The position numbers were made by a program, and so were the translations under genes. From a virus (taxonomy: Duplodnaviria; Caudoviricetes): 64,000 nucleotides of DNA. Below, piece after piece: positions 22,960 through 47,952 of this stretch. The stretch spans positions 1 through 64,000 of IMG/VR virus record IMGVR_UViG_3300020576_003089. The stretch is one strand, 5' to 3'. The notes under the pieces were generated by a model, which was given only the letters and a program-made list of their open reading frames with translations, was not told the DNA's origin and did no database searches. Numbering within the stretch: the stretch's first letter is position 1; each line of letters starts with the position of its first letter.

Positions 22960-24003
22960 TTATTTAATACCTGCTAATACTTGCATTCTTAAAAGACTAT
23001 CATTAACTTCTAAAATTGGTTTTCTTTGAGACATTCCTGCTGGTTTTGAAGCAAATCCTAAGTTTTCTTTTATAGTTGATTTTTTATTAGGATTAACAGG
23101 ATTTAATATATTAGAATTTAAAGATTCAAATATTAATTTAACTTCTTTTACATTAGTAGCTCTATCAAATGATGAAATAACTTTTAATTTTTGTCCTTCA
23201 TTTAAATTTTTAGCTTTAAATATTTTATTTACATAAAGTAATTTAGCGTTTAATAAATTAATTTCATTAATTTCAGTACGTAAAACTTTAACAGCTTTAT
23301 ATGCTTCGTTTAATTTTCTTTTTAATATTTTATTTTCATTTAAACCAGAATTTGAAACATTTGATGGTTGAACCATATCATCTAATTCTCTTAATATTTC
23401 ATCAATATCAAATTCATCTTCATCTTCACTACCAGGCATTCCACCACCTAAATCATCTCCCATGTTATCCATTCCCATTTCTCCACCTAAATCGTCTCCC
23501 ATTCCACCATCTAAATCATCTCCCATTCCTAAATCGTCTCCCATTTCTCCACCTAAATCTTCAGTTCCAGTACTCATTTCTTGACTTACTACTGATTGAA
23601 TAAGTGTTGTAAATTCTTCAACTGTTAAATTTGATAATTTTTCATCTGATTTATCATCTTCATCTTTCTCTGAACCTGTTTTTTCTTTAGGTTTAGATGG
23701 TTTTGATGGTGATTTATCATCTGATTTTTTATCTGATTTTTTGTCTTTATCTTTGTCATCATTATCATCTTCACTTTCATTTAAATCGTCTTCTAATTCT
23801 TGTAGGATTGAAGAAAGATCTACATCTTCTTCTAATTCGTCATTTCCGAATTCATCCATTTCATTTAATTTTCTAGACATCATTTTTTCAAGTTTAGGTT
23901 TTAATGTTTCTTCCAAAGCATTTTTAGCATTTATTAATGCAGTTTCACGAATCATTTTTGCATCAGCAATTGCATCTTGCAATACATTATTGTTTTTTGA
24001 CAT
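22960..24003 (-). CDS. Prohead scaffold/core protein (T4 gp22-like)
   Basis: Acidic coiled coil with GDDLGG low-complexity tract, between protease and capsid genes; ends RMQVLAGIK. Confidence 0.85.
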   Translation of the reverse strand: MSKNNNVLQDAIADAKMIRETALINAKNALEETLKPKLEKMMSRKLNEMDEFGNDELEEDVDLSSILQELEDDLNESEDDNDDKDKDKKSDKKSDDKSPSKPSKPKEKTGSEKDEDDKSDEKLSNLTVEEFTTLIQSVVSQEMSTGTEDLGGEMGDDLGMGDDLDGGMGDDLGGEMGMDNMGDDLGGGMPGSEDEDEFDIDEILRELDDMVQPSNVSNSGLNENKILKRKLNEAYKAVKVLRTEINEINLLNAKLLYVNKIFKAKNLNEGQKLKVISSFDRATNVKEVKLIFESLNSNILNPVNPNKKSTIKENLGFASKPAGMSQRKPILEVNDSLLRMQVLAGIK

Positions 24004-24135
24004 TTTTCCTTAATTATTTTTTTGTTGGAAATAAGATTATTATAATCTTAATAGTATTTTTTTCTAAACCATATCATATGAGATAATGATATATTGAGGT
24101 TATTAATAAATATATAGCAAAGGTCAAAACCATAC

Positions 24136-24165
24136 AAAAAGAAACGTTTCTTTTTAGAAACGTTT
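24136..24165 (-). terminator. Rho-independent terminator
   Basis: AAACGTTTCT-AAAA-AGAAACGTTT then CTTTTTG. Confidence 0.7.
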
Positions 24166-24424
24166 AATTATTCATTATTTGTTTTAATTCTCTGTAAATT
24201 TTTTCTAAATCTGATTGAGAAAATAAATCAAAATCATATGTTTCTAACCAATCATCACTAATATTATATTTTTTTATATATGGTTTACATATTTTTAAAT
24301 ATGAATTCCAATGATTGTTCCACTTAGGTATTGATATTGAATTCCAATACTCTTTTACCTTTGCTAAATTTATATTAGGATTATTAATGTCGAGTTCAGA
24401 TATAAGAGACATTAACTTTAACAT
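24164..24424 (-). CDS. Leader-tagged hypothetical protein (MLKLMSLISELDINNP)
   Basis: Leader variant; probable start is the 4th codon of the tracked ORF. Confidence 0.7.
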   Translation of the reverse strand: MLKLMSLISELDINNPNINLAKVKEYWNSISIPKWNNHWNSYLKICKPYIKKYNISDDWLETYDFDLFSQSDLEKIYRELKQIMNN

Positions 24425-25035
24425 AATGCACACACACCGGTTTGGTTACAAATAATATCTGTAATTATATTATTAATTTTACTATATTTAGTATCTGAAA
24501 TATGATTTAAATTTTCATTTAATTTATATTGATAAGCATTATTTGTAGATGGGGTTGAAACTAAATCAGCACATAATAAATCAAAATCATCTTGTACTTC
24601 TACAGTATTTTCACTTACTTGTTTAACGGAACCCATTCCTCTAGTTGATATACCTAATGGAATATTATTAGATGCAATTTCTTGTGCTATTCTGCCTGAT
24701 GGAGTATTTAGTAATTCTATTTCAGCCATTACATTATTACCTTCCCACCATATTTTAGTAATTAAATGAGAAACATTATTTAAATTAATAACTGATGAAT
24801 CGGGATGATCTAATTCACCTAATGCTGTTCTATTTTTAACAGGGCCTTCATTATATTTATTAAATTCTCTTTCTAATATAGCTTTAGGATATTTACGACC
24901 ATTTCCATTTTCAGCCTCTGCTTCCTGTATTTTACCTCTAACACGCATACGACCATTTCCTCCAGCTTTAGATTCATTTATAGTTGAATCTATACTAAAG
25001 TTAAATGGGATTGTGTCTATTAATAATTCTTTCAT
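24418..25035 (-). CDS. Prohead protease (T4 gp21-like)
   Basis: NGNGRKYP...RTALGELDHP...VSHLIT...LLNTPSG...GISTRGMGS...DLVSTPST. Confidence 0.95.
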   Translation of the reverse strand: MKELLIDTIPFNFSIDSTINESKAGGNGRMRVRGKIQEAEAENGNGRKYPKAILEREFNKYNEGPVKNRTALGELDHPDSSVINLNNVSHLITKIWWEGNNVMAEIELLNTPSGRIAQEIASNNIPLGISTRGMGSVKQVSENTVEVQDDFDLLCADLVSTPSTNNAYQYKLNENLNHISDTKYSKINNIITDIICNQTGVCALC

Positions 25036-26435
25036 TATTTTTTAAATAATTTTTTAATTCGTCTTTTTATTTCTTGCATCATTTCAGAAGTTATCTTAGG
25101 AGATAATACATAAAATGTTTTAACACCATCTTCACCTTCATTACTAGATTCTACTTTAATATTAAATTTTGTTTCTAATTCACTTAATATATGTGTAGGT
25201 AATTCATCCCAATAATCATATTTTAAATAAACTTTTAGATTTTTTTCAGTTAATCTAATATTTTGACATTCATCTGGACATTTAGTATCTATAAAATTTT
25301 GTACTTGATTTAATATTCCTTCATTACTAACTTCTAGTTCATTTACATTTTGACCTTGTTCAGCTTTTCTTCTTTTATATTCTGCATTTGGGTCATTGAT
25401 TGCTAATTCATTTAAACCCTTAACTTTTTTCATTTTACCACCTGTCATATCCATTACACCTTTAATACCTTTAGCTCTAACAGCTTTATGTGTTAAATCT
25501 TTAACTTTAATTTTAGGTGTAGTTTCTTTTTTAGCTTTATTAGCAGATGCTTTATCCTTTTCTACACCTTTAGGATTTTCCATTTTGTTTAACTTATCTG
25601 TTGTATTAGACATTTTTTTATCCATTTCAACTGGTAAATCAGTGCGTTTTTTAACTTCTGGTTCTATTTTTTTAATATCTCCACCTGCTAATAATAATTT
25701 AGTATAATAATAAGAATGTTTACTTAAATTAGATTTAACTTTTTTCATCCATTTTTCAATAGTTCCTGTTGGATCAATTGATCTTTCATAACGCATTCCT
25801 ATTTGTTGTTCTAAAGGATCTACTTCGTCTTTACCTTCAATACCATTATATTTTGAATCTGAACCATCCCATTTAGAACCCATTGGTTTAAATTTAGGTT
25901 CTTTTATTTCACGTAATGTTTCATTATCAAAATCAATTAATTCTAAATCAGCTATATAGTCATCTTCAATATCATAATCATCATCTTTATCTATTTTCCA
26001 TTCATAATCATCTTCATCTTCATCTTCTTCTGGATTTTCATTTAAATCTACCCAATTAAAATCATCTTCAACCATATCTTCATTACCATATATGTCTAAA
26101 TTACGTAATATTTCTAAATCTTCTTCACTAGGTGCTGCAGGTTCAATTGAATCATTATCTATTCTTAAAGAACGTTTTGGTATTCTGAGATTATCAGTAT
26201 CAAAATCTATAGGATCATCATGTTCTTCATCTCTTGGAATTGCTTCATCTAATTGACTTTCACAATTACATCCTTCAGCTATTAAACTTTTGGCTTTAAA
26301 TATTTTAATTGTATCTTCGAATGTATTTACATTAGTAATATAATTAGGAAAAGTTCTACGTGCTTCACGTAAAAAATCTTTCTTACTTATTTTACCTTCT
26401 TGTAAATCAATACATAAGTTTGTTATATTTTTCAT
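25035..26435 (-). CDS. Putative prohead core/internal protein
   Basis: Acidic; internal LNELAINDP and VNELEVSNE junctions; located between portal and protease. Confidence 0.5.
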   Translation of the reverse strand: MKNITNLCIDLQEGKISKKDFLREARRTFPNYITNVNTFEDTIKIFKAKSLIAEGCNCESQLDEAIPRDEEHDDPIDFDTDNLRIPKRSLRIDNDSIEPAAPSEEDLEILRNLDIYGNEDMVEDDFNWVDLNENPEEDEDEDDYEWKIDKDDDYDIEDDYIADLELIDFDNETLREIKEPKFKPMGSKWDGSDSKYNGIEGKDEVDPLEQQIGMRYERSIDPTGTIEKWMKKVKSNLSKHSYYYTKLLLAGGDIKKIEPEVKKRTDLPVEMDKKMSNTTDKLNKMENPKGVEKDKASANKAKKETTPKIKVKDLTHKAVRAKGIKGVMDMTGGKMKKVKGLNELAINDPNAEYKRRKAEQGQNVNELEVSNEGILNQVQNFIDTKCPDECQNIRLTEKNLKVYLKYDYWDELPTHILSELETKFNIKVESSNEGEDGVKTFYVLSPKITSEMMQEIKRRIKKLFKK

Positions 26436-27115
26436 TAAATACTAATTTGTTTTTGAGGTGCTTGATTAAATTCGGCTACTTTAGCTTGCTCTTGAGCTGG
26501 GGTTTGTGTTTTACTAAAGCTTAATACTTTAGCCCATTCTACTGAATTAGCTTCACCTTCTTCTTCTCTACCTGTTAATTTAATATAAATACCATCTTTT
26601 TCCATTTTAATCTGATATTTTTTTCCATCTAATGCTTTTTTAACTGCATCAAAACGTTCTTGGGGATTAACATTTTCGTTTAGCTTAATATTAGCTAATT
26701 GTTGCATTCTTTTAATTTCGTCTATTTGTTGTTTCATTTTTATTTTTATTTTATTAGCTAATTCATAATCTTCATCTTCAATAGCTTTTTCTAATTGGTT
26801 TTCTAAAGTTTCATTTTCATTTTCATCAAATCCTATAACAGGTTCATAGTTTTGAATTGAATCAAGTTCCCCAATATCGTCAAATTTATAATTATTATCT
26901 AAAAATATAATTATACCTTGATTAGTTCTTTTAATTTTTAACTTAACTGTACCACCAGGTTGTTGACTATATATAAATTTTTTATTAATAAAAACATCAT
27001 CATATTCATTTACTTTAACAGCCCAAGGTACTACATATCCATAATTATTTACAGGTAGGTTTTCTATATAATTATTCCTATTTAAATTATTACTGGGTAA
27101 TTTAAGTTCTCTCAT
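26435..27115 (-). CDS. Putative core/internal protein with RMQQLANIKLNE motif
   Basis: Motif read in translation. Confidence 0.5.
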   Translation of the reverse strand: MRELKLPSNNLNRNNYIENLPVNNYGYVVPWAVKVNEYDDVFINKKFIYSQQPGGTVKLKIKRTNQGIIIFLDNNYKFDDIGELDSIQNYEPVIGFDENENETLENQLEKAIEDEDYELANKIKIKMKQQIDEIKRMQQLANIKLNENVNPQERFDAVKKALDGKKYQIKMEKDGIYIKLTGREEEGEANSVEWAKVLSFSKTQTPAQEQAKVAEFNQAPQKQISI

Positions 27116-27117
27116 TA

Positions 27118-29282: not shown

Positions 29283-31178
29283 TTAGATATTTTCTTCCTT
29301 AATATTAGATTCATTTAACAATTCTGATTCTGATTCTTGTTCTTGTTCAAATATTAATGTTTTTTTAAATTGTGATGGCAAAGATGATTTAATTTTATAA
29401 AGTTCTTGTAATGCTTTATTACTAACTAAATCCATAGTTGAACTATTTTCACCCTTTCCTAATCTATCACGTCCTAATGGATCTTGCTGTGTGTTTATCA
29501 TAGATGCTTTTTCAATAGGGCGTCCAATAGGTGATTTTTCATCATAACCAGCTGGAACATCACCATTTGTATTCATTCCTGTTCTACCCTTACCATATAA
29601 TGATGCTAAATCGTGTGGTGTACCAAATGATTTACCTGAACGTAATGGATCATTCCCTTCATTTTCTATCTGAGCTAATCTAAATTCACGTTTTTTATCT
29701 TCAATAACTAAATCACGGTGTTCATCATATTGATCTTCACTAAATTCAAACACATTGTTATAAATCCAATCAGATGGTAATAATTTACTATCTATTACAT
29801 CTTTAGCTAATTGAATTTTTTCTTTCCATAATGCTACTTTTTCTTGTTCATATACTATTGATGGAGTAGTTAATGATAATTCAAAATTAGTTAATGTAGC
29901 ACCATCATATCCTTGAGTATATAAATGTATTAATGCTATTTTATATAATTCTGATATAACTATACGTTGGATGCGTTCAATTGTACGAGCAAATCTAATA
30001 TCTTCAGCAGCAAGTGTTGCTTTTCCTGTTAAATCTTTTTCAAAACCAAAAAATGCTTTAGGCACTTTTAATGCTGATAACATTTCATCTCTTAAAAAAT
30101 TAACATCCTCAATAGCATTATATTCTAATCCTTTTAATGTATCTATTTTAGTTGATTGATCATTACCTCTAACAGGGATATAAAAATCCTCCATTAAATT
30201 CATCATGTTATATTTTAAGTTATATTCACCAGTTGATTGATCTATAAAAGGTGTTTTTTTAACTTTTTGTTGTAATTTTTGCATGTATGAATCTACTTCA
30301 TGTGATGGTAAATTTCCTACATTTACTGTAAATACACGTTTTTCAGGGGCTCTAGATATACGATGTAGTAACATCGCATCTTTCATTAATGAGTATTGTT
30401 TAAATGTTTTACGAGCTCCTTCTAAATAACTTTTTCCATATGGTAAATAATTGGCATCTGCTAGTAATCTAAAATGAGCTATTTCATAATTTTGAAATTC
30501 CATTTTACCATCTCTTGAATTGCTACCTATCATTCCTAACCCCGCTACTGCTAATGATTGAGGATCTATTCTAAATGTAGTTTTAGGTACTTTTCTAACA
30601 TCAACACTATCATCTAATCCTTCTTCACGAGTCATTTCATATGTTGATAATGGCATTACATTAAATACACCAAATTTTTCTGCTATTTCTAATTTAAGAT
30701 AAAAATCACCATATTTACACATATTTCTAATCCATAACCATAAATTAAATTCAATATTTAAAACATCATAAAATAAATTATATAAAATTTGTTGTACATT
30801 TTCATCACTTGATCTAATTTGTAAGATTTCTCTCATTTCATTTTTTAAAGTAGATTCATCTGCTATGATATCTAAAGCTGAACTTATAATAGGTTCAGTA
30901 TCCATTACTTCATAATCAGCATATAGCTGTGTACGAAGTGTTTGAATATTCATTGTTGGATTATATGGATTAGTAGCTCCATATTTATGTAATTTAGAAA
31001 ATCTATCTACTAATGAGTTAGTTCTGACATCACCATATGATTGAGTTTTATCAAAATCATTTACTTTTAGTTGTTTACCACCAACGTTGCGTATTACAAC
31101 ATTTGTACTAAATATCTTCTCTAATTTATCAAATACACCTTGTTTAGGTTGTTCTTGATTATTTGTATTTTCTGCCAT
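29283..31178 (-). CDS. Portal protein (T4 gp20-like)
   Basis: LPYGKSYLE...DAMLLHRISRAPEKRVFTVNVGNLP...EDFYIP.RG...IDTL.G...ALKVPK. Confidence 0.95.
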   Translation of the reverse strand: MAENTNNQEQPKQGVFDKLEKIFSTNVVIRNVGGKQLKVNDFDKTQSYGDVRTNSLVDRFSKLHKYGATNPYNPTMNIQTLRTQLYADYEVMDTEPIISSALDIIADESTLKNEMREILQIRSSDENVQQILYNLFYDVLNIEFNLWLWIRNMCKYGDFYLKLEIAEKFGVFNVMPLSTYEMTREEGLDDSVDVRKVPKTTFRIDPQSLAVAGLGMIGSNSRDGKMEFQNYEIAHFRLLADANYLPYGKSYLEGARKTFKQYSLMKDAMLLHRISRAPEKRVFTVNVGNLPSHEVDSYMQKLQQKVKKTPFIDQSTGEYNLKYNMMNLMEDFYIPVRGNDQSTKIDTLKGLEYNAIEDVNFLRDEMLSALKVPKAFFGFEKDLTGKATLAAEDIRFARTIERIQRIVISELYKIALIHLYTQGYDGATLTNFELSLTTPSIVYEQEKVALWKEKIQLAKDVIDSKLLPSDWIYNNVFEFSEDQYDEHRDLVIEDKKREFRLAQIENEGNDPLRSGKSFGTPHDLASLYGKGRTGMNTNGDVPAGYDEKSPIGRPIEKASMINTQQDPLGRDRLGKGENSSTMDLVSNKALQELYKIKSSLPSQFKKTLIFEQEQESESELLNESNIKEENI

Positions 31179-31200: not shown

Positions 31201-32793
31201 TTACCCTAAAAGCCATTTAATATCTTCAGCTTGACCATTTACATTCATTACATAAGGATTTGTTGTGTTTTGTAATCCTATATTATTAAAAGTTGGATAT
31301 AAATCAGTATAAACGTCTTGAGTTATTCCTGATATTGCGGCTCTTGTTAATTTTTGATGTTGTACATTAAACTTTAATGCTGTATCTCTTATGAATAATC
31401 CTATTCCTAAAGATATTACTAAATCATCATTATAACCTGATTGAGCTTGTGCTTTACCATTATGCCAAATAAATACTCTTAGTTCTTCTAATAAACGTTT
31501 AGAATGAAATATAAAACTCTTTTCACGAATATACGACTCCATTTTTGAGATAACAAGAGGTCTTGTTTTTGTAGAATTTGTAAAACCTGGTATTGTTTGA
31601 TCACTTTCCATTTTATCTATGTATTTATCCATTGTCATTTCCCCATATGATCTTGGTGAAAAATACATATTTGTATATCCTCTTTCAAGAACTGTTTGAA
31701 CAACATCCCAACCAATATTTGAATTCTCTATTACTAATAAGGCATTGTTGTATTCAGTTGCTACTGAAACTAACATATGACCATATTCTCTAGTTCCTAT
31801 TTGTGATTTATATTCAGCAACTTGCTCACAGGCTTCTACATCTATAACATGAAATGCTGAATAATCACCTCCATCTCCACGTGAAACGTCAGCTACAACT
31901 ATATAATTTTTACTAAAATCAACATATTCCCAAATCCAAAAATCATTACCCATAAATCTACGTTCTATTGGTTCACGGATATAATTTTCTTCATAAAATG
32001 CTAATAAACCTGATTCAACAACAGTATTACCAGAACCTAAAAAGTCACAATCATATTCTTGTGCAAATTCACGTATACTCATGTTGTTTTTTTCTTCTTG
32101 ATACCATTTTTCATCTCTATCAGGATGTAAATTCCATTTTAATTCAATTTTATGAAAATCATTGGGTTTAGGTAAATCATTATACATCCTATGAAACCAA
32201 TTACCAATTCCATTTGGTGAAGATAATGCTATAATAGATCCTCCGGTTGCAATTGTTGGTTTAATTGAAGTATAAATTTTATCAATACCTTCAATAAACG
32301 CTGCCTCATCAATAATTAACAATGATACAGCGTAAGAACGACCTGTATCACTAGATGCTGATGTTGCTATAATTTGAGAACCATTTGCTAATTGTAAAGA
32401 TAATTTATTATTTGATAAAGGTTTTTTATTACCTTTTAACCAACTTGGTAAATTTTGGAACATAAATTGTACCTTATCAACCATTCCTTTAGCTGTTTCT
32501 TGTTTAGTAGCTATACATAACACGGTTTTATCTTTTTGAAATAACATAGTATGTAAAGCATAACCAGCTGCTAAAGTGGATATACCTAACTGTCTAGATT
32601 TATTAATTATATTATATCTATTAGTTTTAAAATCATGTAATACATTTTCCTGAAATGGATATAAATTAAATAACATACGCCCTTTTTTAGGGTGTGATAT
32701 ATAACAATATTTTTTCATAAAATGTATAGGATCTAAAGCACATTTAATATATTCTTGCTTTATTACTTCCTTTATTTGATCATTATTAGTCAT
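31201..32793 (-). CDS. terL: Terminase large subunit (T4 gp17-like)
   Basis: KSRQLGIST Walker A, LLIIDEAAF Walker B, SSPNG, FAQEYDC, ADVSRGDGGDYSAF, NDDLV; probable start MTNND at 32793. Confidence 0.95.
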   Translation of the reverse strand: MTNNDQIKEVIKQEYIKCALDPIHFMKKYCYISHPKKGRMLFNLYPFQENVLHDFKTNRYNIINKSRQLGISTLAAGYALHTMLFQKDKTVLCIATKQETAKGMVDKVQFMFQNLPSWLKGNKKPLSNNKLSLQLANGSQIIATSASSDTGRSYAVSLLIIDEAAFIEGIDKIYTSIKPTIATGGSIIALSSPNGIGNWFHRMYNDLPKPNDFHKIELKWNLHPDRDEKWYQEEKNNMSIREFAQEYDCDFLGSGNTVVESGLLAFYEENYIREPIERRFMGNDFWIWEYVDFSKNYIVVADVSRGDGGDYSAFHVIDVEACEQVAEYKSQIGTREYGHMLVSVATEYNNALLVIENSNIGWDVVQTVLERGYTNMYFSPRSYGEMTMDKYIDKMESDQTIPGFTNSTKTRPLVISKMESYIREKSFIFHSKRLLEELRVFIWHNGKAQAQSGYNDDLVISLGIGLFIRDTALKFNVQHQKLTRAAISGITQDVYTDLYPTFNNIGLQNTTNPYVMNVNGQAEDIKWLLG

Positions 32794-32821
32794 ATATATA
32801 AATATATACAAGAAATTTTAA

Positions 32822-32852
32822 GCAGAAAGAAACCCATACTTTCGTATGGGTT
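32822..32852 (-). terminator. Rho-independent terminator upstream of terminase
   Basis: AACCCATAC-GAAA-GTATGGGTT then TCTTTCT. Confidence 0.8.
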
Positions 32853-32873
32853 AAGTAATTTTAATTAATTATT

Positions 32874-33230
32874 TTATAAGTTAGTTCCAGTTGGTTCATA
32901 ATAATAAAGATCTTTTCCATTTATATTTATTTTACTCCAATCAGCTAAATCAGCATCTTGAATATCTTGTTCTGTAGGTTCATGATCTATTAAACAAATT
33001 GAATCTACTGCTTCACCTATCCAAACTTGACCATTTTCACCTTGAAATACTTCTTCATATCTCATATCCTCAGGATATTCATCTTCACCTATTATTTCAT
33101 TTACAATTTTTTTTCTATTCAGTTTTATGAAATTTAATAAATCTCTAGGATCATTAATAGTTATTTCGTTTAATGGACGAATACCTGCTAATTGCTGCAT
33201 TCTATGTATTTCGTTTATTTGTTTTTTCAT
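32874..33230 (-). CDS. RMQQLAGI-leader hypothetical protein
   Basis: MKKQINEIHRMQQLAGIRPLNEITINDP. Confidence 0.7.
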   Translation of the reverse strand: MKKQINEIHRMQQLAGIRPLNEITINDPRDLLNFIKLNRKKIVNEIIGEDEYPEDMRYEEVFQGENGQVWIGEAVDSICLIDHEPTEQDIQDADLADWSKININGKDLYYYEPTGTNL

Positions 33231-34338: not shown

Positions 34339-34971
34339 TTAAATTATACTCCAAGTACCTGGTTCTGTTAAATTTTCTCTTAATTTATCTATTACTTCTT
34401 GTTTTTTTAACGCTGGAATAACATTTCCTGATTTATTTAATTTAAAAATATTTAAAAATTCATTACCATCTTCATGTGATAAAGTTGGGTAAGCATATAA
34501 AGTATATCCATCGTTTTCTATTTTTATACATCCCATATCATGGGTTTTACTATAATCAACCAGATAATTAGCTAATTGAGGTCCATTATCAATATCATTA
34601 GTATCACCATTATTAATATTATAATATCCTGGTTTTATTTCCTTATATAAATCAACATCCCAACCATTATCATCAAATTCTTCTATTTTTACTTCTAAAC
34701 TATTAAAACTATTTATATTAAAATTATCATACCATTTATTAAATTTATTTAAATTAAATTTATCTAAATCAAACCCACTTATTATATCAGAAATATAATC
34801 ATAATATCCTGCTCCTCCTGATCCTACTCCTCCTAATAATCCTTCATCAAATGAAATTCCAATTTCACCTAATTTAGTACCAATATCTGATAAATCATTT
34901 GGATCATTTAAGTCTAATTCATTTAATTTAATTCCTGCAAGTTGTTGCATTCTGCGTATTTCGTTCATCAT
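34339..34971 (-). CDS. RMQQLAGI-leader hypothetical protein
   Basis: MMNEIRRMQQLAGIKLNELDLNDP. Confidence 0.7.
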   Translation of the reverse strand: MMNEIRRMQQLAGIKLNELDLNDPNDLSDIGTKLGEIGISFDEGLLGGVGSGGAGYYDYISDIISGFDLDKFNLNKFNKWYDNFNINSFNSLEVKIEEFDDNGWDVDLYKEIKPGYYNINNGDTNDIDNGPQLANYLVDYSKTHDMGCIKIENDGYTLYAYPTLSHEDGNEFLNIFKLNKSGNVIPALKKQEVIDKLRENLTEPGTWSII

Positions 34972-34972: not shown

Positions 34973-36067
34973 TTATTTTATTATACCTGCTCTTAATTTA
35001 AATTTTCTTATTAATGATTCATCTAATGTATCTTCAATATCATCTTCATCAAATTCAAATTCATCTTCAAAACTAAATTTATCATTATCTGATGTATTAG
35101 ATTGTTTATAAGGTATATCACCTACTGCTTTAATTATTTTATTATATAAGTTTTTTAAATGTCCTGGTAGTTTATGTTCTAACATTTCAATAATTGCACG
35201 TTGTACATCTAATTCTTCTTGTTTAATTAAACTTGCATATTCATCTACTAAAACATCAACTTTTGAACCTGAATTCAAAACACGATTTCTTTCTTGAGAA
35301 TAATAATTATCACTTACATCATCTTCATTAATTGATTTTTTTACTTTAACACGAGACTGTAATTGACTATTAATTATTTTTTGAAGTAATCTATCATGTG
35401 TAAAGAAAAATTCTGCTGCTTTACTTCTAGCATTAGAAGGAGCTATATATTGGTGTTTTGGTAAATCTGGTTCTACTTCATCGGGTTCGTCAAATTCATC
35501 CTTATCTTTACCTTTTGAAACATTAAAATATTGAGACAATTCATTATCTGAATCTCTTTCATAATCGTTTTCATCTTCTAAGTCTTTCTTCTCATTATCA
35601 AATCTATTTCTAGGTTTTGTTAAGGCTTCACCTGAAATAGGTTCAATTATTCCATATGGTTCTAGTACATCTTTTACAACTGGATTAAACATTTGTTGTC
35701 TACCAAATTTAGGATCACCTTTCATTTCCCCATATGCTTTAGCTATATCTAATATTTGCCATTCTGGATTTTCACCTGCATAATCCAATATAAATTTAAC
35801 AGTTTTACTATTTTGTACTTTATCAGGAGCTGCTAATAATTTTGCTCTCCAATCGTCTGCTAATTTATATTTTGAAGGGATTCTAGCCATTTCATCTAAA
35901 TCTGCTTCTTTTAATTTGCGTCCTTGTGTTGTAGTTGCTGTTTTTATATTTGGATCGGTACGTAATGAATTTGAATCTGGTTCATTATTTACATATGTGG
36001 TTTTGCCCGTTTTATCGGTAACCATTGTTCCTTCTACTAATTTAGATAATATATCTAGTGTTCTCAT
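34973..36067 (-). CDS. Acidic hypothetical protein with C-terminal KFKLRAGIIK motif
   Basis: Several LxE junctions; C-terminus resembles scaffold end. Confidence 0.6.
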   Translation of the reverse strand: MRTLDILSKLVEGTMVTDKTGKTTYVNNEPDSNSLRTDPNIKTATTTQGRKLKEADLDEMARIPSKYKLADDWRAKLLAAPDKVQNSKTVKFILDYAGENPEWQILDIAKAYGEMKGDPKFGRQQMFNPVVKDVLEPYGIIEPISGEALTKPRNRFDNEKKDLEDENDYERDSDNELSQYFNVSKGKDKDEFDEPDEVEPDLPKHQYIAPSNARSKAAEFFFTHDRLLQKIINSQLQSRVKVKKSINEDDVSDNYYSQERNRVLNSGSKVDVLVDEYASLIKQEELDVQRAIIEMLEHKLPGHLKNLYNKIIKAVGDIPYKQSNTSDNDKFSFEDEFEFDEDDIEDTLDESLIRKFKLRAGIIK

Positions 36068-39192: not shown

Positions 39193-39606
39193 TTATTTTA
39201 TTTATTTATAATTGTTTTTAAAATATAAAGTAATATAAGGAGTATTTAATTTATATTTAAATCTAAATTTATCAGCTGCTTTTTTAAATATTTCTATTAA
39301 ATCATCCTCATAATCCTTATATATCCAATGAATAAAGTGAATCCCACTAATTTTTATTCTTCTCATAGAATTACCATTTTTTAATTTATATATATCATTA
39401 TAATAATCTATTTTACCATAAGTGTTTTGATGACCATTTAAACTTTGAATAAATTTATTTAATTGTTGAGGTGGAATAGGAAATTCTTTTAATATTTCAT
39501 TTGTACAATAAATTAAAAATAATTTTAATTTATCTTTATCATAAATATCAGAATTAGGATTAATTACTTCTAACTCATTCAGTAATTCTAATAATTTCAT
39601 TTATTT
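39169..39606. repeat. 30-bp exact direct repeat (39169-39198 and 39577-39606) covering two gene starts
   Basis: Minus strand AAATAA-ATGAAATTATTAGAATTACTGAAT at both positions. Confidence 0.85.
39202..39600 (-). CDS. Leader-tagged hypothetical protein (MKLLELLNELEVINP)
   Basis: Shared leader. Confidence 0.7.
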   Translation of the reverse strand: MKLLELLNELEVINPNSDIYDKDKLKLFLIYCTNEILKEFPIPPQQLNKFIQSLNGHQNTYGKIDYYNDIYKLKNGNSMRRIKISGIHFIHWIYKDYEDDLIEIFKKAADKFRFKYKLNTPYITLYFKNNYK

Positions 39607-40699
39607 ATTTTTTACAAACGTTAACAATTGTTATGGCTTTTTCATCAAATATTATTCTAACTGAACCATTTGAATGGGTATTACCATCTATTCCTGATCT
39701 TAATAAAAATAAAGAAGCATCTTTAGGTGCATTAGTTGAACCTTGATTTTTAAAATAATTTTCAATTTTATTGTATACATCAAAACCACTTAATGATGTT
39801 GTAAATTGAAAATTGTGATTTTCTTGTTTTGCTCTATTATTTATTTTATTAATCTGATTTTGAGGTACTCTATTATCTAAATCTAAATATTCATATTCTG
39901 ATGGTTTTTTACCTTTATGTAATAATACAGTATAAACATATTTCATTGGTTCTGTTTGAATCTCCATCCCTTTAATGATATCAATAAATCTTTTATATTC
40001 TTTTATTAAAGGTATATCATCTGGGTCTTCATCTTCTTCTAATATTTCTATCATATCCTCAGCATATTCAATAAATTCATCTACTGTTTGTAATTTAGAT
40101 GGTAATCTTTCAAATACTATACAATCATATTCAAATGCTAATTCATGTGGGTTTTTACCTTGAAAAAGTATCATTTTTTTACCACTATTACTCCCAACTC
40201 CAGCATAACCATTGGCCATATTAACGTCTTTAGCAAAATACAAACCCCATCCATACATTTGCATACCTGCACCTAAACCTATAGCTGCTGTTCTATAACA
40301 TTTAAAATAATTAGAACCACCACCATAAAATGTTTCTTCCTCAGTTATAGGTTGTTTATTGTTATTTAATTTTTCTTGAATTTTAAATTTATCTTTCAAA
40401 ATTTGTCTTAATTCTATTTGTTTATTCTTAGGTAATGATTTTATTTGTTGTAATATATGAGATATTGGTTTTTGGTCGTTATTAGAAGTTATTAACCATA
40501 TATGGTTAGATCCATGTTGTTTAATGTAAAATGGATAAGGTCTTTTTTTTAATCCTCTAACTGATAAACTACTCCATCTATTATCATCTTTTAACCTTTG
40601 AATTATTTCATTGAATTGGTTATCATTATCTACTCGTATAGGTATTTTTATAGGAGGTTTATTAATTTCTAATTCTAATAAGTTTGTTAAATTAATCAT
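39605..40699 (-). CDS. Leader-tagged protein with ADP-ribosyltransferase-like (ART-PolyVal-type) C-terminal domain
   Basis: MINLTNLLELEINKP leader; FYGGG...AIGLGAGMQMYGWGLYFA...SLFLLRSGIDG matches the polyvalent-protein ART signature as I recall it. Confidence 0.6.
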   Translation of the reverse strand: MINLTNLLELEINKPPIKIPIRVDNDNQFNEIIQRLKDDNRWSSLSVRGLKKRPYPFYIKQHGSNHIWLITSNNDQKPISHILQQIKSLPKNKQIELRQILKDKFKIQEKLNNNKQPITEEETFYGGGSNYFKCYRTAAIGLGAGMQMYGWGLYFAKDVNMANGYAGVGSNSGKKMILFQGKNPHELAFEYDCIVFERLPSKLQTVDEFIEYAEDMIEILEEDEDPDDIPLIKEYKRFIDIIKGMEIQTEPMKYVYTVLLHKGKKPSEYEYLDLDNRVPQNQINKINNRAKQENHNFQFTTSLSGFDVYNKIENYFKNQGSTNAPKDASLFLLRSGIDGNTHSNGSVRIIFDEKAITIVNVCKK

Positions 40700-44107: not shown

Positions 44108-44635
44108 TTAATTATGTTTTGAAATTTTAATTATTTCATTAGGTTTAATATCTAAAACATAACATCCATAAAAACTTAAATTTTTATTTTTTAAATCAAT
44201 TAATTCAGAAACATCCTGTAATGTTGGGTTAGATTTAAATTCAATCATTTCATCAAATTTATCAAAATCTTCTACACCAAATTCTTCAGGATCATAATCA
44301 TCTAAATCTATAAAAACTTCATTTAATGGTTTTTTGAATTTAATATTAATATAAGGTATATCTCCTCCTTCATCACTCATAGTATCTATCATTTCAAATC
44401 TTACTCTTTGGGTAGGAATAGCAGGTTTACTAGATGATTTAAAATTTTGCTGTGTTGCTTTTAAACCATTTTTAAATTCAGGTTTCCATACAGTATATCC
44501 TGTATCTCCTCCTCTTTCAAAATCATCTTGAGATTGAAGAAAAGAAGTGTTTAATTCAATAGTTAGAGTGTTATCTTTATTTAATGCCTTATTAATTTCC
44601 TCTTTAATGATTTGTTTTAATTCAGATTTTCTCAT
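44108..44635 (-). CDS. Hypothetical protein with MRKSELKQIIKEE leader
   Basis: ORF track translation. Confidence 0.65.
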   Translation of the reverse strand: MRKSELKQIIKEEINKALNKDNTLTIELNTSFLQSQDDFERGGDTGYTVWKPEFKNGLKATQQNFKSSSKPAIPTQRVRFEMIDTMSDEGGDIPYINIKFKKPLNEVFIDLDDYDPEEFGVEDFDKFDEMIEFKSNPTLQDVSELIDLKNKNLSFYGCYVLDIKPNEIIKISKHN

Positions 44636-44682
44636 ATTTTTATCTAATTTTTATATTTGTTTATTCTTTGTCTAAGAAAAAA

Positions 44683-45150
44683 TTAAACTATTTTTAAAAT
44701 ATATTTTGGTTCTAAATACCCTGGTTTATTAGAAATAATTCTTTCTTCTGCTAATTCAGATCCTCCTAAAGAATCAATTTTAACTCCTACTTGCTTAAAC
44801 CATTCATCACTTGGTTTATCTATATATGTAGAAGCTTGGATAGGAACAATTTTATATTTTTCTGATATTTTATTACCATCTAAAACAATTAGCGTTTTAT
44901 GTTTCCAATTTTGTTTTTTTCTTGTAGTAGATATAAAATATTCATTTGATATTTCTTCTTGAGGTTCACTAAATTTTAATCCTTTATCTAAAATATTTTT
45001 TATATTTTTAATATTAGTATAATGATATAATAATCCAATTTGTTTTCCTTCATTTAAGAAATCATCATCTTTATTAATTTTGTTTTCTGTAGTAATCCCT
45101 GCTAGTTTTTGTAGTCTTTTGATAATTCCTTCGTTTAGTTGTTTTTTCAT
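44683..45150 (-). CDS. RLQKLAGI-leader protein, ADP-ribosyltransferase-like fold candidate
   Basis: After LNE: LLYHYT...NILDKGL...ISTTR...EERI. Confidence 0.5.
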   Translation of the reverse strand: MKKQLNEGIIKRLQKLAGITTENKINKDDDFLNEGKQIGLLYHYTNIKNIKNILDKGLKFSEPQEEISNEYFISTTRKKQNWKHKTLIVLDGNKISEKYKIVPIQASTYIDKPSDEWFKQVGVKIDSLGGSELAEERIISNKPGYLEPKYILKIV

Positions 45151-45153
45151 ATT

Positions 45154-45618
45154 TTATTTTTGAATTTCAAATTTAATTTTTTTATTATTTAGTAATTTGA
45201 TGAGATTTTCATCTGGTTTATGGAGGATAGCTTTAGTAATAGTTGTTATAGGAATATTACCTTGTATAGAAATAGTTCCTCCTTCGTAACTTCTATTAGC
45301 TTGGGTCATTTTATTTTTTATCTTATTGCTATCTATCACAAATGTAACATCCAAATCTCCTAATCCATAAAAATTATTATTATCATGTGGAAAATCAGAA
45401 ACATATACAAATTTACCATAATTTGGATCTTCATACCAATCTTCAGGATTTTGGTTTGTTGATTTTAATATGTTTTCATAAGTTTTAATTTCACCACTTT
45501 TCAAAATGTTTAAAGCATTTTGTATATCTGTTGAATGATAAACTAAATTACCTTTTTGGTATTCTTTATCTTCTTTAAGTATTCCAGCTAATTTTTGCCA
45601 TCTTTTAAATTCTTTCAT
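45154..45618 (-). CDS. RWQKLAGI-leader protein, ADP-ribosyltransferase-like fold candidate
   Basis: After LKE: LVYHST...LNILKSGEI...FVYVS...VTFVID...GNIPITTI. Confidence 0.45.
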   Translation of the reverse strand: MKEFKRWQKLAGILKEDKEYQKGNLVYHSTDIQNALNILKSGEIKTYENILKSTNQNPEDWYEDPNYGKFVYVSDFPHDNNNFYGLGDLDVTFVIDSNKIKNKMTQANRSYEGGTISIQGNIPITTITKAILHKPDENLIKLLNNKKIKFEIQK

Positions 45619-45624
45619 ATTATA

Positions 45625-46143: not shown

Positions 46144-46370
46144 TTATTGTTTAAATTTAAGAGATTTTGTTCAAGTTCTTTTATTACTTCTTCATATTGT
46201 TTACTTGTAATATCCATTGCTTCATCTGTTTGTCCTTTATCAGCAAAATCTTTACATAATTTAGCTAAATCAATTGCTGCTATTAAATTATCTTTTTTAG
46301 ATAACATTCCTTTATATGGATTATGGTTTGATGATTTCAACATCAATTCTATTATTTCTTTATTTTTCAT
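46140..46370 (-). CDS. Hypothetical protein
   Basis: 76-aa coupled ORF. Confidence 0.55.
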   Translation of the reverse strand: MKNKEIIELMLKSSNHNPYKGMLSKKDNLIAAIDLAKLCKDFADKGQTDEAMDITSKQYEEVIKELEQNLLNLNNK

Positions 46371-46722
46371 TTAATCTTTCTTTAATACGTTGTTCAATTA
46401 TTTCTCTATCTTGTTGTGTTGGTTGATAATCATTCATTAAATTATTAGGTATATTATCCCAAGCATTACCATAATAAGATACATTGAAACCTCTATCAAG
46501 ACATTCTTTATAAAGTTCTTCATACCTGTTTTTTAAATATCCTAATTTGTTATAGAAAAATTTTACATGACCTTTTCCTAATGTGAATTGATTTGGGATA
46601 TCTACTATTTTAGCTCTACCACTTGAAATAGTATTAGGAATACGTTTAATTTCTCTATGTTCAGCCATTAAATGTCTGTTTGTTAATTCTCTAGGTTTAA
46701 TACCTACATTGATTCTTGTCAT
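46360..46722 (-). CDS. denV: Pyrimidine-dimer DNA glycosylase (T4 endonuclease V)
   Basis: MTRIN...LTNRHLMAEHREIKRI...FTLGKGHVKFFYNKLGYLKNRY. Confidence 0.95.
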   Translation of the reverse strand: MTRINVGIKPRELTNRHLMAEHREIKRIPNTISSGRAKIVDIPNQFTLGKGHVKFFYNKLGYLKNRYEELYKECLDRGFNVSYYGNAWDNIPNNLMNDYQPTQQDREIIEQRIKERLNEK

Positions 46723-46804
46723 TCTATAAAAGTAAGAAAAGAATTTTGACTTTTAACAACCTGTTTCTCGTACTATTATTTTTGACCTTTAATTTCTGTA
46801 ATTT

Positions 46805-47077
46805 TCATTCTGAACCTGGACCTTCCATCCATTCATTTTCATCTATTAATGATAAATTGTCAGATATAACTAAACCTCCACAATCATCTTCACTTCTCGT
46901 TATAATTATTTTAATATAATCTTCTCCATCATCATTTTCTTCATCTCGGATTTGCCAATCTAATTCATCACTATTAGGATTTAAAATTCCAAAACCTGTT
47001 TTATTCATAATGAGTTCAAGATTTAATCTAACCCAACTTTCACTAAATCCTGGTTTATTTACTTCTAATTCGTTTAA
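46805..47077 (-). CDS. Cargo module, probably the frameshifted tail of 47074-47952
   Basis: Frame upstream of Met47008 reads LNELEVNKPGFSESW..., preceded by TGA. Confidence 0.5.
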   Translation of the reverse strand, partial: LNELEVNKPGFSESWVRLNLELIMNKTGFGILNPNSDELDWQIRDEENDDGEDYIKIIITRSEDDCGGLVISDNLSLIDENEWMEGPGSE

Positions 47078-47952
47078 TCATTTAAATCAGGTTCTGTCCA
47101 TTTAATTATAATACTACCATATTCATCCGTTGAAACTTTAACTCTTTCTATAAGAGCTTCATGATCATTAAAAATTAATTTCTTTCCTTTTAAAAAGTTA
47201 AAGATTTTATTATATTCTTCTATTTGTTCATCATCATCCCATAAATGATCTTCATTAAACTCATATTCAATATTTTTATCTTCTCCCATCATGTTATCTT
47301 CATAATATACATCTATAACGTTTCGGATATATTTTTCAACTTCAGAACGAGTTAAAGGGTGATTTACTTCTAATTCATCTATTAGATCTTCGTCATCTTC
47401 CCATTTTTCATCATCATCATCATCGTCATCCCAATCATCTGATATTTCTAGCATTATTTCATATGCTCTTTTCAAAGCTAAATTTATTGAAGAATATTTT
47501 ATAGGTTCTTTTATTGCGTTTCCAAAAGCATAATATGCTTCTATTGTAAATCCATTTTCTTTTTTAATAATTTTAACATCATCTGTATGATTTTCATCAT
47601 GACCATCCATAGGTGCTGAAAACCAATAAACAATATCTTCTTTAATATCTTCAGGTTCTAATATAATTTCATCCCATCCTTCAGGAATTTTAACATTAGG
47701 ATTACTTATTTCTAATTCGTTTAGTTGAATACATGCTAATTGTTGCATTCTTTTGATTTCATCAATTCCTGCTTTTTCTAAACGTGAATAATATTTAGGA
47801 TCTTCTGCTAAATGATCTAATGCTATTTCTTTAGCAATTATTGAACTATTGGTATGTTCCATTTCATGTTTTATACCTTTTTTAAGTTCATTGTGGTCTA
47901 CATTTTTAGGATTTAATTTATCTCCTTTTCCACCTCGTAATTTATTTAACAT
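47074..47952 (-). CDS. Multi-module protein: small helical domain (DUF5661-like, from memory) + RMQQLACIQLNELEISNP + cargo + DELEVNHP + cargo
   Basis: HEMEHT...IAKEIALDHLAEDPKYYSRL, then the repeat junctions. Confidence 0.65.
   Translation of the reverse strand: MLNKLRGGKGDKLNPKNVDHNELKKGIKHEMEHTNSSIIAKEIALDHLAEDPKYYSRLEKAGIDEIKRMQQLACIQLNELEISNPNVKIPEGWDEIILEPEDIKEDIVYWFSAPMDGHDENHTDDVKIIKKENGFTIEAYYAFGNAIKEPIKYSSINLALKRAYEIMLEISDDWDDDDDDDEKWEDDEDLIDELEVNHPLTRSEVEKYIRNVIDVYYEDNMMGEDKNIEYEFNEDHLWDDDEQIEEYNKIFNFLKGKKLIFNDHEALIERVKVSTDEYGSIIIKWTEPDLND

What the first reader, a model, noticed from the sequence alone, without database searches (positions are those of the whole stretch)
22960..47952. 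Second tag, RMQQLAGI, shared with the extreme C-terminus of the scaffold protein
Seen: the scaffold ends LLRMQVLAGIK. The same motif is N-terminal in 32874-33230 (RMQQLAGIRPLNE), 34339-34971 (RMQQLAGIKLNE), 44683-45150 (RLQKLAGI) and 45154-45618 (RWQKLAGILKE). It is internal in 26435-27115 and 47074-47952, and a variant ends 34973-36067 (KFKLRAGIIK). It is usually followed by an LxE site. Known: scaffold C-termini are the coat-binding element in several phages (e.g. P22). Inference: cargo proteins mimic the scaffold's capsid-binding peptide to co-assemble into the prohead and are then freed by the protease.
Basis: partly seen in the sequence, partly recalled or inferred. Interest (0 to 1): 0.82.

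Follow-up and report, generated by a model that had tools for sequence, protein, structure and literature searches.

The report
Scaffold-tail peptide reused as capsid-loading tag
In a T4-like phage and hundreds of uncultured relatives, the last 15 residues of the head scaffold protein also sit on the front of many unrelated small proteins, next to a head-protease cut site. These proteins are therefore probably loaded into the capsid through the scaffold's own docking peptide, but no experiment shows this yet.

Summary
Seven proteins carry xEIxRMQ(Q/K)LAGI, against 0.0045 expected by chance. The codons vary synonymously, so the conservation is at the protein level. A profile built only from other phages' copies finds exactly these seven. 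The eighth claimed copy (KFKLRAGIIK) is not recovered.

The phage is a distant T4 relative with a gp23 capsid protein, an S77 gp21-type protease and a gp20 portal.

- **Scaffold ends.** In 73 of 73 related contigs found through the capsid gene, the upstream scaffold ends in this motif. So do the scaffolds of Flavobacterium phage immuto, Microcystis phage Mel-JY01 and Rhodothermus phage RM378. T4 gp22 does not.
- **Position.** An exact-motif scan of IMG/VR gave 84 copies 1-5 residues from a stop codon and 37 within the first 22 residues of small proteins. The 46 cargo bodies compared (39 from IMG/VR and 7 from this window) fall into 42 unrelated groups.
- **Cut site.** A hydrophobic-x-Glu site of the T4 protease type lies between tag and protein body, at +3 in 30 of 43 N-terminal tags and at -7 in 89 of 134 C-terminal tags.
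- **Leader swapping.** Orthologues of two cargo families exchange this leader for other leaders at the same junction.

The best reading is a capsid-targeting propeptide copied from the scaffold's docking tail. This is a new variant of the T4 targeting-sequence principle. Binding, packaging and cleavage are untested. The scan's first stage noted the same motif on another genome.

The parts
22960..24003 (-). Head scaffold gene (gp22 position, 347 aa). It has a long N-terminal helix, an acidic disordered middle, a helical domain at 219-300, a disordered linker at 301-334, a short helix at 335-343 and the tail GIK.
   Evidence: It lies between the S77 protease and the gp23 capsid gene. It is homologous to the pre-capsid ORFs of immuto and the IMG/VR contigs. 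Model. Similarity to T4 gp22 is only weak (hhalign prob 7.8%).
22963..23007 (-). Scaffold C-terminal peptide VNDSLLRMQVLAGIK (residues 333-347). The core motif is at 22966-22989.
   Evidence: 16.9 bits. The same terminus is found in 73/73 capsid-anchored relatives.
23008..23016 (-). I-L-E (residues 330-332), a candidate protease site that would detach the scaffold body from its tail peptide.
   Evidence: Glu at -7 from the motif Arg in 89/134 non-redundant C-terminal tags. T4 gp21 cuts after L/I-x-E (PMC9026906).
33165..33230 (-). Leader of ORF 32874-33230: MKKQINEIHRMQQLAGIRPLNE. The motif is at 33180-33203.
   Evidence: 19.3 bits. The gene lies just upstream of the large terminase gene, as in relatives such as L092.
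34918..34971 (-). Leader of ORF 34339-34971: MMNEIRRMQQLAGIKLNE, followed by LDLNDP. The motif is at 34930-34953.
   Evidence: 21.6 bits. Orthologues carry this leader, RFQQLAGI variants or a T4-CTS-like NFDLKKYIAEG leader.
45049..45150 (-). Leader and linker of ORF 44683-45150: MKKQLNEGIIKRLQKLAGITTENKINKDDDFLNE. The motif is at 45094-45117. The cargo has an ADP-ribosyltransferase-like fold.
   Evidence: 13.7 bits. Leader helix 3-16 and a disordered linker precede the domain. Top fold matches are Tpt1/KptA and DarT. Orthologues swap three leaders at the LNE|GKQVG junction.
45571..45618 (-). Leader of ORF 45154-45618: MKEFKRWQKLAGILKE. The motif is at 45580-45603.
   Evidence: 24.0 bits, the best in the contig. 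The cargo has only a weak sub-threshold Pfam 2CompART hit.
26675..26728 (-). Internal tag in ORF 26435-27115: QIDEIKRMQQLANIKLNE. The motif is at 26687-26710. The preceding MKQQIDEIK looks like a former N-terminus. The gene lies in the portal-to-protease head module.
   Evidence: 20.6 bits. In L067 the gene at the same place starts MKQQINEVKRMQQLAGI. LANI is also the scaffold variant of the closest relatives.
47716..47766 (-). Internal tag in ORF 47074-47952: IDEIKRMQQLACIQLNE. The motif is at 47728-47751. It sits between a DUF5661 domain and a downstream domain.
   Evidence: 15.3 bits. In L040 the homologous downstream domain carries the tag near its N-terminus.
34976..35005 (-). Doubtful C-terminal variant KFKLRAGIIK* of ORF 34973-36067, preceded by L-D-E.
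   Evidence: The string is present but the tag HMM does not recover it. Genuine non-scaffold C-terminal tags exist elsewhere: L015, L017, L086, L100.
24418..25035 (-). Prohead protease, the enzyme presumed to remove the tag.
   Evidence: Pfam Peptidase_S77, E 2.4e-27.
21306..22922 (-). Major capsid protein (gp23 type), a candidate receptor of the tail peptide.
   Evidence: Pfam Gp23, E 3.9e-74. 57% identical to the capsid protein of Flavobacterium phage immuto.

Best explanation
The peptide of about 15 residues, hydrophobic-[NDS]-[ED]-x-hydrophobic-x-R-[MWF]-Q-x-L-A-G-I-(I-K), is the docking tail of the gp22-position scaffold in a large clade of distant T4 relatives. In the model it is a short helix and a 3-4 residue tail on a flexible linker. 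The same peptide has been copied onto the N-terminus of many unrelated small proteins, and sometimes onto a C-terminus or a domain junction.

Inferred mechanism:
1. During prohead assembly the tagged proteins occupy the site that normally holds the scaffold tail. By analogy this is most likely the inner face of the gp23-type capsid protein.
2. They are thereby enclosed in the prohead.
3. The S77 gp21-type protease cuts at the hydrophobic-x-Glu site that always lies between tag and protein body.
4. This frees the cargo inside the head, for probable ejection with the DNA, and likewise detaches the scaffold body from its tail.

Shown here: the shared peptide, its conservation and positions, its portability, the adjacent cut-site motif, leader swapping, and the presence of the protease gene. 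Inferred: binding, the receptor, packaging, cleavage and ejection.
For: - **Significance in the contig.** 7 copies against 0.0045 expected, with protein-level conservation. An independent HMM recovers exactly these copies.
- **Scaffold tail.** All 73 scaffolds found through the capsid gene end in the motif. So do immuto, Mel-JY01, RM378 and LR756508.
- **Unprompted bimodality.** Of 123 exact copies in IMG/VR, 84 lie 1-5 residues before a stop, and 78 of those sit directly upstream of a gp23 gene. 37 lie within the first 22 residues and 2 are internal.
- **Portability.** 46 cargo bodies fall into 42 clusters.
- **Cut-site motif.** [LIVM]xE lies within 9 residues in 41/43 N-terminal tags (background 12%), with the Glu at +3 in 30/43. 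It is present in 120/134 C-terminal tags (background 44%), with the Glu at -7 in 89/134. T4 gp21 cuts after L/I-x-E (PMC9026906), and an S77 protease is encoded here.
- **Leader swapping.** Two cargo families exchange leaders at one conserved junction, and one of the alternatives resembles the T4 CTS.
- **Gene position.** 16 of 39 non-C-terminal (N-terminal or internal) copies lie on loci that also hold a terminase, portal or head-core gene.
- **Models.** The leader is a helix on a disordered linker. The scaffold tail is helix 335-343 plus GIK after a disordered linker. This is the architecture of the 80alpha scaffold 'helix-and-hook' ending in RIIK, which binds the capsid protein and is copied by CpmB (PMC5644958).
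- **Cargo type.** One cargo has an ADP-ribosyltransferase-like fold, like the packaged T4 Alt.
Against: There are no proteomic, structural or genetic data for any phage of this clade.

- Hydrophobic-x-Glu is a low-information motif in these Glu-rich proteins. It also occurs inside the extended tag (L-S-E at -6 to -4), so not every such site can be a cut site.
- Cargo tags do not track the scaffold's own variant. Immuto has scaffold RWQK but cargo RMQK. This window has scaffold RMQV but cargo RMQQ, RWQK and RLQK.
- Complete relatives carry only 1-2 strict copies, so the system is small in most genomes.
- T4's own targeting sequence is thought to address the scaffold core, not the shell (PMC3012670).
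- The scaffold assignment rests on gene order, composition and clade-wide homology, with only weak similarity to T4 gp22.
Confidence: 0.6

Rival explanations
1. Same targeting logic but a different receptor. The tail peptide binds the scaffold core itself (homotypic helix bundling of scaffold tails, which cargo tags join) or the portal, and not the capsid protein. Cargo is then built into the core as in T4, or is placed near the portal.
For: T4 internal proteins are described as targeted into the scaffolding core and co-purify with gp22 (PMC3012670; PMC9026906). Small residues (A, G) in LAGI suit helix-helix packing. No clean capsid-tail covariation was found.
Against: In systems solved at high resolution (80alpha SP and CpmB) the extreme C-terminal helix-and-hook of the scaffold contacts the capsid protein. 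The same is established for the C-terminal 25 residues of the herpesvirus scaffold (my own knowledge, not checked in a paper here). The modelled linker-helix-tail architecture fits a tether that reaches the shell.
Confidence: 0.25
2. The motif is a docking (exosite) element for the S77 protease. It marks the neighbouring hydrophobic-x-Glu for efficient cleavage and has no role in loading proteins into the head.
For: The motif is always within 3-7 residues of a conserved candidate cut site. The determinants of gp21 specificity are described as surprisingly few (PMC9026906).
Against: The site is downstream of the motif in cargo (+3) and upstream in scaffolds (-7), an odd geometry for one exosite. 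Other, unrelated leaders replace the motif at the same junction in orthologues, so the cut does not need this peptide. The prohead protease acts inside proheads, so substrates must still get in.
Confidence: 0.08
3. The shared peptide is unrelated to heads. It could be a generic interaction, degradation or chaperone signal, or a by-product of recombination or translation-start constraints at gene boundaries.
For: There is no direct evidence of packaging. Tagged genes are scattered among non-structural genes in the window. No shared late-promoter motif was found.
Against: Synonymous codon variation rules out a DNA-level junction repeat. The peptide is the invariant end of the scaffold encoded next to the capsid gene in every relative. 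The positional coupling to a protease-type site is unexplained by these ideas. Tagged genes are enriched near the terminase, portal and head-core genes.
Confidence: 0.05

Closest known systems
Capsid targeting sequence (CTS) of phage T4 internal proteins IPI, IPII, IPIII and Alt
   Same: Both are short N-terminal leaders shared by otherwise unrelated proteins. Both end at an L/I-x-E site of the gp21-type prohead protease, are portable, and sit in a phage with gp20, gp21, gp22 and gp23 head genes. Cargo includes an ADP-ribosyltransferase-like protein, as with Alt (PMC3012670, PMC9026906).
   Different: The sequence is unrelated to MKTYQEFIAE. The tag is longer, about 15 residues. It is identical to the scaffold's own extreme C-terminus, it also occurs at C-termini and domain junctions, and T4 gp22 has no such end. 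In the papers I read here, the T4 CTS is said to address the scaffolding core, and no specific binding site is named.
80alpha scaffolding protein and SaPI1 CpmB C-terminal 'helix-and-hook' (RIIK motif)
   Same: An amphipathic helix and a short hydrophobic/basic tail lie at the extreme C-terminus of the scaffold on a flexible linker. A second, unrelated protein carries the same peptide and uses the same site (PMC5644958). The consensus end here is ...LAGIIK*, and the model shows helix 335-343 plus a tail.
   Different: CpmB is a satellite's size-redirecting scaffold, not cargo. There the motif is only C-terminal, and the passages I read do not tie it to protease release. Binding to the capsid protein is solved for 80alpha and untested here. 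There is no detectable sequence homology.
Shared scaffold tails on herpesvirus and HK97-type maturation proteases
   Same: A non-scaffold protein gets into the procapsid by carrying the scaffold-type capsid-binding tail, and the protease then severs the tail from the body. This rests on my own knowledge of the herpesvirus UL26/UL26.5 M-site and the HK97 protease C-terminal targeting region.
   Different: In those systems the passenger is the protease itself. Here the protease lacks the motif and the passengers are many unrelated small proteins, mostly tagged at the N-terminus.
Propeptide-bearing ejection proteins of giant phages (SPN3US, phiKZ-like) and encapsulin cargo-loading peptides
   Same: Both have many internal proteins processed by the prohead protease (SPN3US abstracts), or a short terminal peptide that docks cargo to the inside of an HK97-fold shell (encapsulins, my own knowledge, not checked here).
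   Different: The SPN3US abstracts listed mention no common leader copied from the scaffold. Encapsulins have no protease release and are not viruses.

Membership tests
T4-type capsid-targeting-sequence (CTS) proteins | Short N-terminal leader conserved among otherwise unrelated proteins | tested here: met
   4 N-terminal copies in the window. 37 N-terminal copies in IMG/VR. 46 cargo bodies fall into 42 clusters.
T4-type capsid-targeting-sequence (CTS) proteins | Leader ends at an L/I-x-E site of the gp21-type protease | tested here: met
   [LIVM]xE within 9 residues in 41/43 tags against a 12% background. Glu at +3 in 30/43. This is a sequence motif only, and cleavage was not measured.
T4-type capsid-targeting-sequence (CTS) proteins | Phage encodes the gp21-type (S77) protease with gp20 portal and gp23 capsid protein | tested here: met
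   Pfam Peptidase_S77 2.4e-27, Portal_T4 6.3e-66, Gp23 3.9e-74.
T4-type capsid-targeting-sequence (CTS) proteins | Sequence similarity of the leader to the T4 CTS MKTYQEFIAE | tested here: not met
   The RMQQLAGI leader shows no resemblance. The T4 string was verified in the T4 genome. Only an alternative leader on orthologues (..KKYIAEG..) resembles it.
T4-type capsid-targeting-sequence (CTS) proteins | Leader necessary and sufficient for encapsidation, and removed in the mature head | not testable with these tools
   Needs reporter fusions and virion mass spectrometry.
Scaffold C-terminal helix-and-hook capsid-binding motif (80alpha SP/CpmB type) | Located at the extreme C-terminus of the scaffold and conserved | tested here: met
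   73/73 capsid-anchored scaffolds end in the motif plus 0-6 residues, as do immuto, Mel-JY01 and RM378.
Scaffold C-terminal helix-and-hook capsid-binding motif (80alpha SP/CpmB type) | Amphipathic helix followed by a short hook, tethered by a flexible linker | tested here: inconclusive
   The AlphaFold2 model has 301-334 disordered, helix 335-343 (pLDDT 72-79) and tail 344-347. This is a monomer model of moderate confidence.
Scaffold C-terminal helix-and-hook capsid-binding motif (80alpha SP/CpmB type) | Contacts the capsid protein (N-arm and A/P cleft) | not testable with these tools
   No structure of this clade exists. A PDB sequence search found nothing. Needs cryo-EM or binding assays.
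Scaffold C-terminal helix-and-hook capsid-binding motif (80alpha SP/CpmB type) | Sequence homology to the RIIK motif region | tested here: not met
   Only the terminal IIK is shared with the consensus ...LAGIIK*. No PDB chain matched at E <= 10.
gp22-type prohead scaffold (identity of ORF 22960-24003) | Gene between the protease and the major capsid gene, acidic and helical, homologous across the clade | tested here: met
gp22-type prohead scaffold (identity of ORF 22960-24003) | Detectable homology to T4 gp22 | tested here: inconclusive
   hhalign probability 7.8%, with 33 columns at 36% identity in an equivalent region. No Pfam or PHROG hit.

The most novel reading that the evidence does not exclude
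The scaffold's docking site inside the prohead acts as an open loading dock that any protein can use by acquiring a 15-residue peptide at either end. This clade runs several interchangeable address labels: the scaffold-tail mimic, the MIKLxxILNE leader, the KSELKQIIKEE leader and a T4-CTS-like leader. These would send cargo to different sites, such as shell, core or portal, and so set copy number or order of ejection. Orthologues changing label would then be retuning dose or timing of injected effectors such as ADP-ribosyltransferases.
Probability: 0.15. Interest if true: 0.8.

Novelty: new variant of a known kind. Interest (0 to 1): 0.6.

Why it matters
The papers read here say the T4 targeting sequence addresses the scaffolding core, but they name no specific binding site. 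In this clade the tag is the same peptide as the scaffold's own conserved tail. That points to one shared site and makes the receptor question testable in a cultured phage. Flavobacterium phage immuto has both a tailed scaffold and a tagged gene, immuto26A_188.

The result also gives a simple sequence rule for finding head-packaged, probably injected proteins in hundreds of uncultured aquatic phages. Some of these proteins have an ADP-ribosyltransferase-like fold. It further suggests a natural peptide for loading foreign proteins into capsids.

Tried and rejected
- **Complex prediction.** The capsid protein (alignment A1) was run with scaffold residues 300-347 (alignment A2). The job returned 'no answer' with score 0.00 and the controls were not run. 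It counts neither for nor against binding.
- **Late promoter.** TATAAATA gave 34 matches against 41 expected. Inspection of the upstream regions found no shared motif.
- **Other leaders versus the scaffold N-terminus.** An HMM of scaffold N-termini found only the scaffold itself, so the idea that the KSELKQIIKEE leader copies the scaffold N-terminus is rejected.
- **MIKLxxILNE as a truncated RMQQLAGI.** The tag HMM does not score these N-termini above noise. The idea is not supported.
- **Capsid-tail covariation.** 99 non-redundant pairs were compared, with 17 M-to-aromatic changes on the tree. The top column was capsid residue 15 (changed in 13/18 discordant pairs against 4/36 concordant pairs). 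The residue pattern is clade-confounded and inconsistent, so nothing can be concluded about the receptor.
- **Database searches.** A PDB sequence search with the scaffold tail gave no hit. PHROGs gave no family for the scaffold or any tagged protein.
- **Homology to T4 gp22.** hhalign of the scaffold alignment against T4 gp22 gave a probability of 7.8%.
- **Literature.** No paper holds the motif strings, and nothing was found for Mel-JY01 or for RM378 virion proteomics.
- **Eighth copy.** KFKLRAGIIK (34973-36067) is not recovered by the HMM.

Full report
**What the window is.** The window is the first 64 kb of a 75,232-base virus contig with about 25% G+C and nearly all genes on the minus strand. 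Pfam identifies four head and packaging genes:
- a gp23-type major capsid protein (21306-22922, E 3.9e-74)
- an S77 gp21-type prohead protease (24418-25035, E 2.4e-27)
- a T4-type portal (29283-31178)
- a T4-type large terminase (31201-32811)

The closest cultured relative is Flavobacterium phage vB_FspM_immuto, with 57% capsid identity. Next come Microcystis phage Mel-JY01 (48%) and Rhodothermus phage RM378 (37%). The ORF 22960-24003 sits between the protease and the capsid gene. It is acidic and helical and is homologous to the ORF in the same position in all relatives. I therefore treat it as the scaffold. Its direct similarity to T4 gp22 is only weak.

**Checking the observation.**
- A strict regex finds 7 copies. 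All are in minus-strand coding frames and none in other frames. The mean over 2000 residue shuffles of the contig's proteins is 0.0045.
- The regex was written after the fact. As an independent check, I trained an HMM only on 155 distinct 15-residue tags from other contigs. It recovers exactly the seven copies at 13.7-24.0 bits, and the next best match in six frames of the whole contig scores 3.4 bits.
- The claimed eighth copy, KFKLRAGIIK at the end of 34973-36067, is not recovered and stays doubtful.
- Codons for Leu, Ala, Gly, Ile and Gln differ among copies, so selection acts on the peptide and not on a DNA repeat.
- The similarity extends six residues upstream of the Arg, to about 15 residues in all.

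**The motif is the conserved end of the scaffold in a whole clade.** Immuto's scaffold (immuto26A_204, annotated 'DNA polymerase phi-like protein') ends SRWQKLAGIIK*. Mel-JY01's ends VERMKKLAGIVK*, RM378's ends LERIKRLAGL*, and that of the 484-kb uncultured phage LR756508 ends SRMQKLADIS*.

To avoid circularity I collected 80 IMG/VR loci through the capsid protein alone. An upstream ORF could be read in 73 of them. In all 73 it ends in R-[MWF]-[QKR]-x-[LI]-A-[GNF]-[ILG] plus 0-6 residues.

The motif fades with distance. LR756511 (32% capsid identity) ends LKTLAGRKAK*. Pseudomonas phage Milchi (25%) and T4 gp22 (...VYAKVASRF*) lack it.

- The 123 copies fall into two classes without any prompting. 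84 lie 1-5 residues before a stop codon. 37 lie within the first 22 residues of proteins of about 90-350 aa. Two are internal.
- Of the 84 C-terminal copies, 78 are followed directly by a gp23-type gene. A few belong to other proteins (L015, L017, L086, L100).
- The N-terminal consensus is MKKQILSEEFK-RMQKLAGI-ITE-SQLNE. The scaffold consensus is KPIVESNDAVx-RMQKLAGI-IK*.
- After the tag is removed, 46 cargo bodies form 42 clusters at blastp E<1e-4. The tag is therefore fused to unrelated proteins.
- 16 of the 39 non-C-terminal copies lie on loci that also hold a terminase, portal or head-core gene. The fetched loci cover only a small part of a roughly 160-kb genome.
- Complete relatives have 1-2 strict copies and this contig has seven, so the set is expanded here.

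**A protease-type site always separates tag from body.** T4 gp21 cuts after L/I-x-E (PMC9026906).
- In 41 of 43 non-redundant N-terminal tags an [LIVM]xE lies within 9 residues after the motif, against a 12% background. The Glu is at +3 from the Ile in 30 of 43.
- In 120 of 134 C-terminal tags such a site lies just upstream, against a 44% background in these acidic proteins. The Glu is at -7 from the Arg in 89 of 134. Several exceptions have Asp at that position.
- In this window the sites are LAGIKLNE, LAGIRPLNE, LAGILKE and LAGITTE...FLNE for cargo, and PILE|VNDSLLRMQVLAGIK for the scaffold.
- The motif carries little information and also occurs inside the extended tag. The positional sharpness is the evidence, not mere presence.

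**Leader swapping.** Orthologues (60-87% identical) of the cargo domain of 44683-45150 carry three different leaders. These are the RLQKLAGI leader, MIKL[IT]D[IL]LNE and MKKSELKQ[IL]IKEEISK[IV]LNE. All join the conserved domain at the same LNE|(G/S/A)KQVG junction.

Orthologues of 34339-34971 carry RMQ(Q/K)LAG[IL], RFQ(Q/E)LAG[IL], or a leader of the form NFDL(R/K)K(Y/F)(I/L)(A/T)EG(R/K)LLKE. The core of that last leader, (Y/F)IAE, resembles the T4 CTS MKTYQEFIAE, which I verified in the T4 genome.

Interchangeable leaders on one cargo, with a fixed Glu junction, are what one expects of removable address peptides.

**Structure models.**
- The 44683-45150 model has the leader as a helix (residues 3-16) that ends just before AGI. 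A disordered linker follows to residue 39, then a compact domain.
- The best PDB matches of that domain are all NAD-utilising ADP-ribosyltransferase-fold enzymes: Tpt1/KptA, DarT, PARP and Scabin. The scores are marginal (E about 1e-3 to 1e-2, TM 0.41). They agree with sub-threshold Pfam hits to PARP, Tox-ART-HYD1 and DarT.
- The scaffold model shows a disordered linker (301-334), a short helix (335-343, SLLRMQVLA) and the tail GIK.

**Comparison with known systems.** The principle is the T4 capsid targeting sequence: a conserved leader on diverse proteins, removed by gp21 (PMC3012670; PMC9026906). The tag here differs in three ways. Its sequence is unrelated. It is longer. It is identical to the scaffold's own C-terminal tail, which T4 gp22 lacks.

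The nearest structural precedent is staphylococcal phage 80alpha. The last 16 residues of its scaffold form an 11-residue amphipathic helix and a 5-residue hook (RIIK) on a flexible linker, which binds the capsid protein's N-arm and A/P cleft. The satellite protein CpmB carries the same tail and competes for that site (PMC5644958). The clade consensus here...RMQKLAGIIK*, has the same layout, but this is a resemblance and not a tested membership.

No paper in the searched library contains the motif strings.

**What remains open.** Binding, the receptor, packaging and cleavage are all inferred.
- The single complex-prediction job gave no verdict.
- A covariation search between the tail's M/W/F position and the capsid alignment was clade-confounded.
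- The receptor could be the capsid protein, which I favour by analogy. It could also be the scaffold core, as assumed for T4, or the portal.
- A protease-exosite role and head-unrelated roles are less likely, for the reasons given under the rival explanations.

**Verdict.** I class this as a new variant of a known kind, with interest 0.6. The first stage of this scan noted the same LAGI scaffold-and-leader pattern on another genome (e1-5696463), which I did not examine.

Noticed in passing
window 44683-45150 and 45154-45618 (minus strand): Two tandem tagged genes. The first folds into an ADP-ribosyltransferase-like domain, with top PDB matches Tpt1/KptA and DarT at marginal scores (E about 1e-3, TM 0.41). 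Invariant residues in its family include the H of LYHYT, S-T-T-R and E-E-R. The second has only a weak Pfam 2CompART hit. 39605-40699, which has an MINLTNLLELEINKP leader, also has weak PARP and ART-PolyVal hits.
   Followed up: partly
window, 14 sites such as 19296-19322, 18718-18744, 48708-48734, 57909-57935, 6267-6293: The junction motif LNEL-x-INNP occurs 14 times in coding frames. In 34339-34971, 47074-47952 and 32874-33230 it directly follows the RMQQLAGI tag, so in this phage the two 'tags' share one junction module. The tag HMM does not support common origin of the MIKLxxILNE leader and the RMQQLAGI leader.
   Followed up: partly
window 47051-47077 (minus strand): LNELEVNKP is in frame with ORF 46805-47008 but lies upstream of its ATG and directly after a stop codon. 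The true start of this small gene may be non-canonical, or the junction motif may be a remnant.
   Followed up: no
window 44108-44635 (minus strand): This ORF starts MRKSELKQIIKEEINKALNKDN. This is the third leader type, which replaces RLQKLAGI on orthologues of the neighbouring gene 44683-45150.
   Followed up: partly
L001 18731-19972 (MW353175.1 immuto26A_204): The immuto scaffold is annotated 'DNA polymerase phi-like protein', presumably because of its acidic low-complexity region. By position, homology and its RWQKLAGIIK* end it is the head scaffold. immuto26A_188 (L001 4780-5244) starts MKKQILSEQFRRMQKLAGIITESQFNE.
   Followed up: yes
window 32812-32873 and about 21255-21300 (minus strand): G+C-rich hairpins followed by T runs (CCCATACGAAAGTATGGGTTTCTTT and GGCCCAAACGAAAGTTTGGGTCTTTTT) lie just upstream of the terminase ORF and of ORF 20541-21254. 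They look like intrinsic terminators that separate transcription units. The TTG starts called for both ORFs are probably too far upstream.
   Followed up: no
window 26435-27115 (minus strand): The internal tag is preceded by MKQQIDEIK, which looks like a complete N-terminal leader with its Met. In relative L067 the gene in this position starts there. About 125 residues seem to have been fused upstream, or an internal start is used.
   Followed up: partly
L015, L017, L086, L100 (IMG/VR loci): Non-scaffold proteins of 221-594 aa carry the tag at their extreme C-terminus, each with a hydrophobic-x-Glu just upstream (INE, MNE, VFE). The tag therefore seems to work at either end of a protein.
   Followed up: partly
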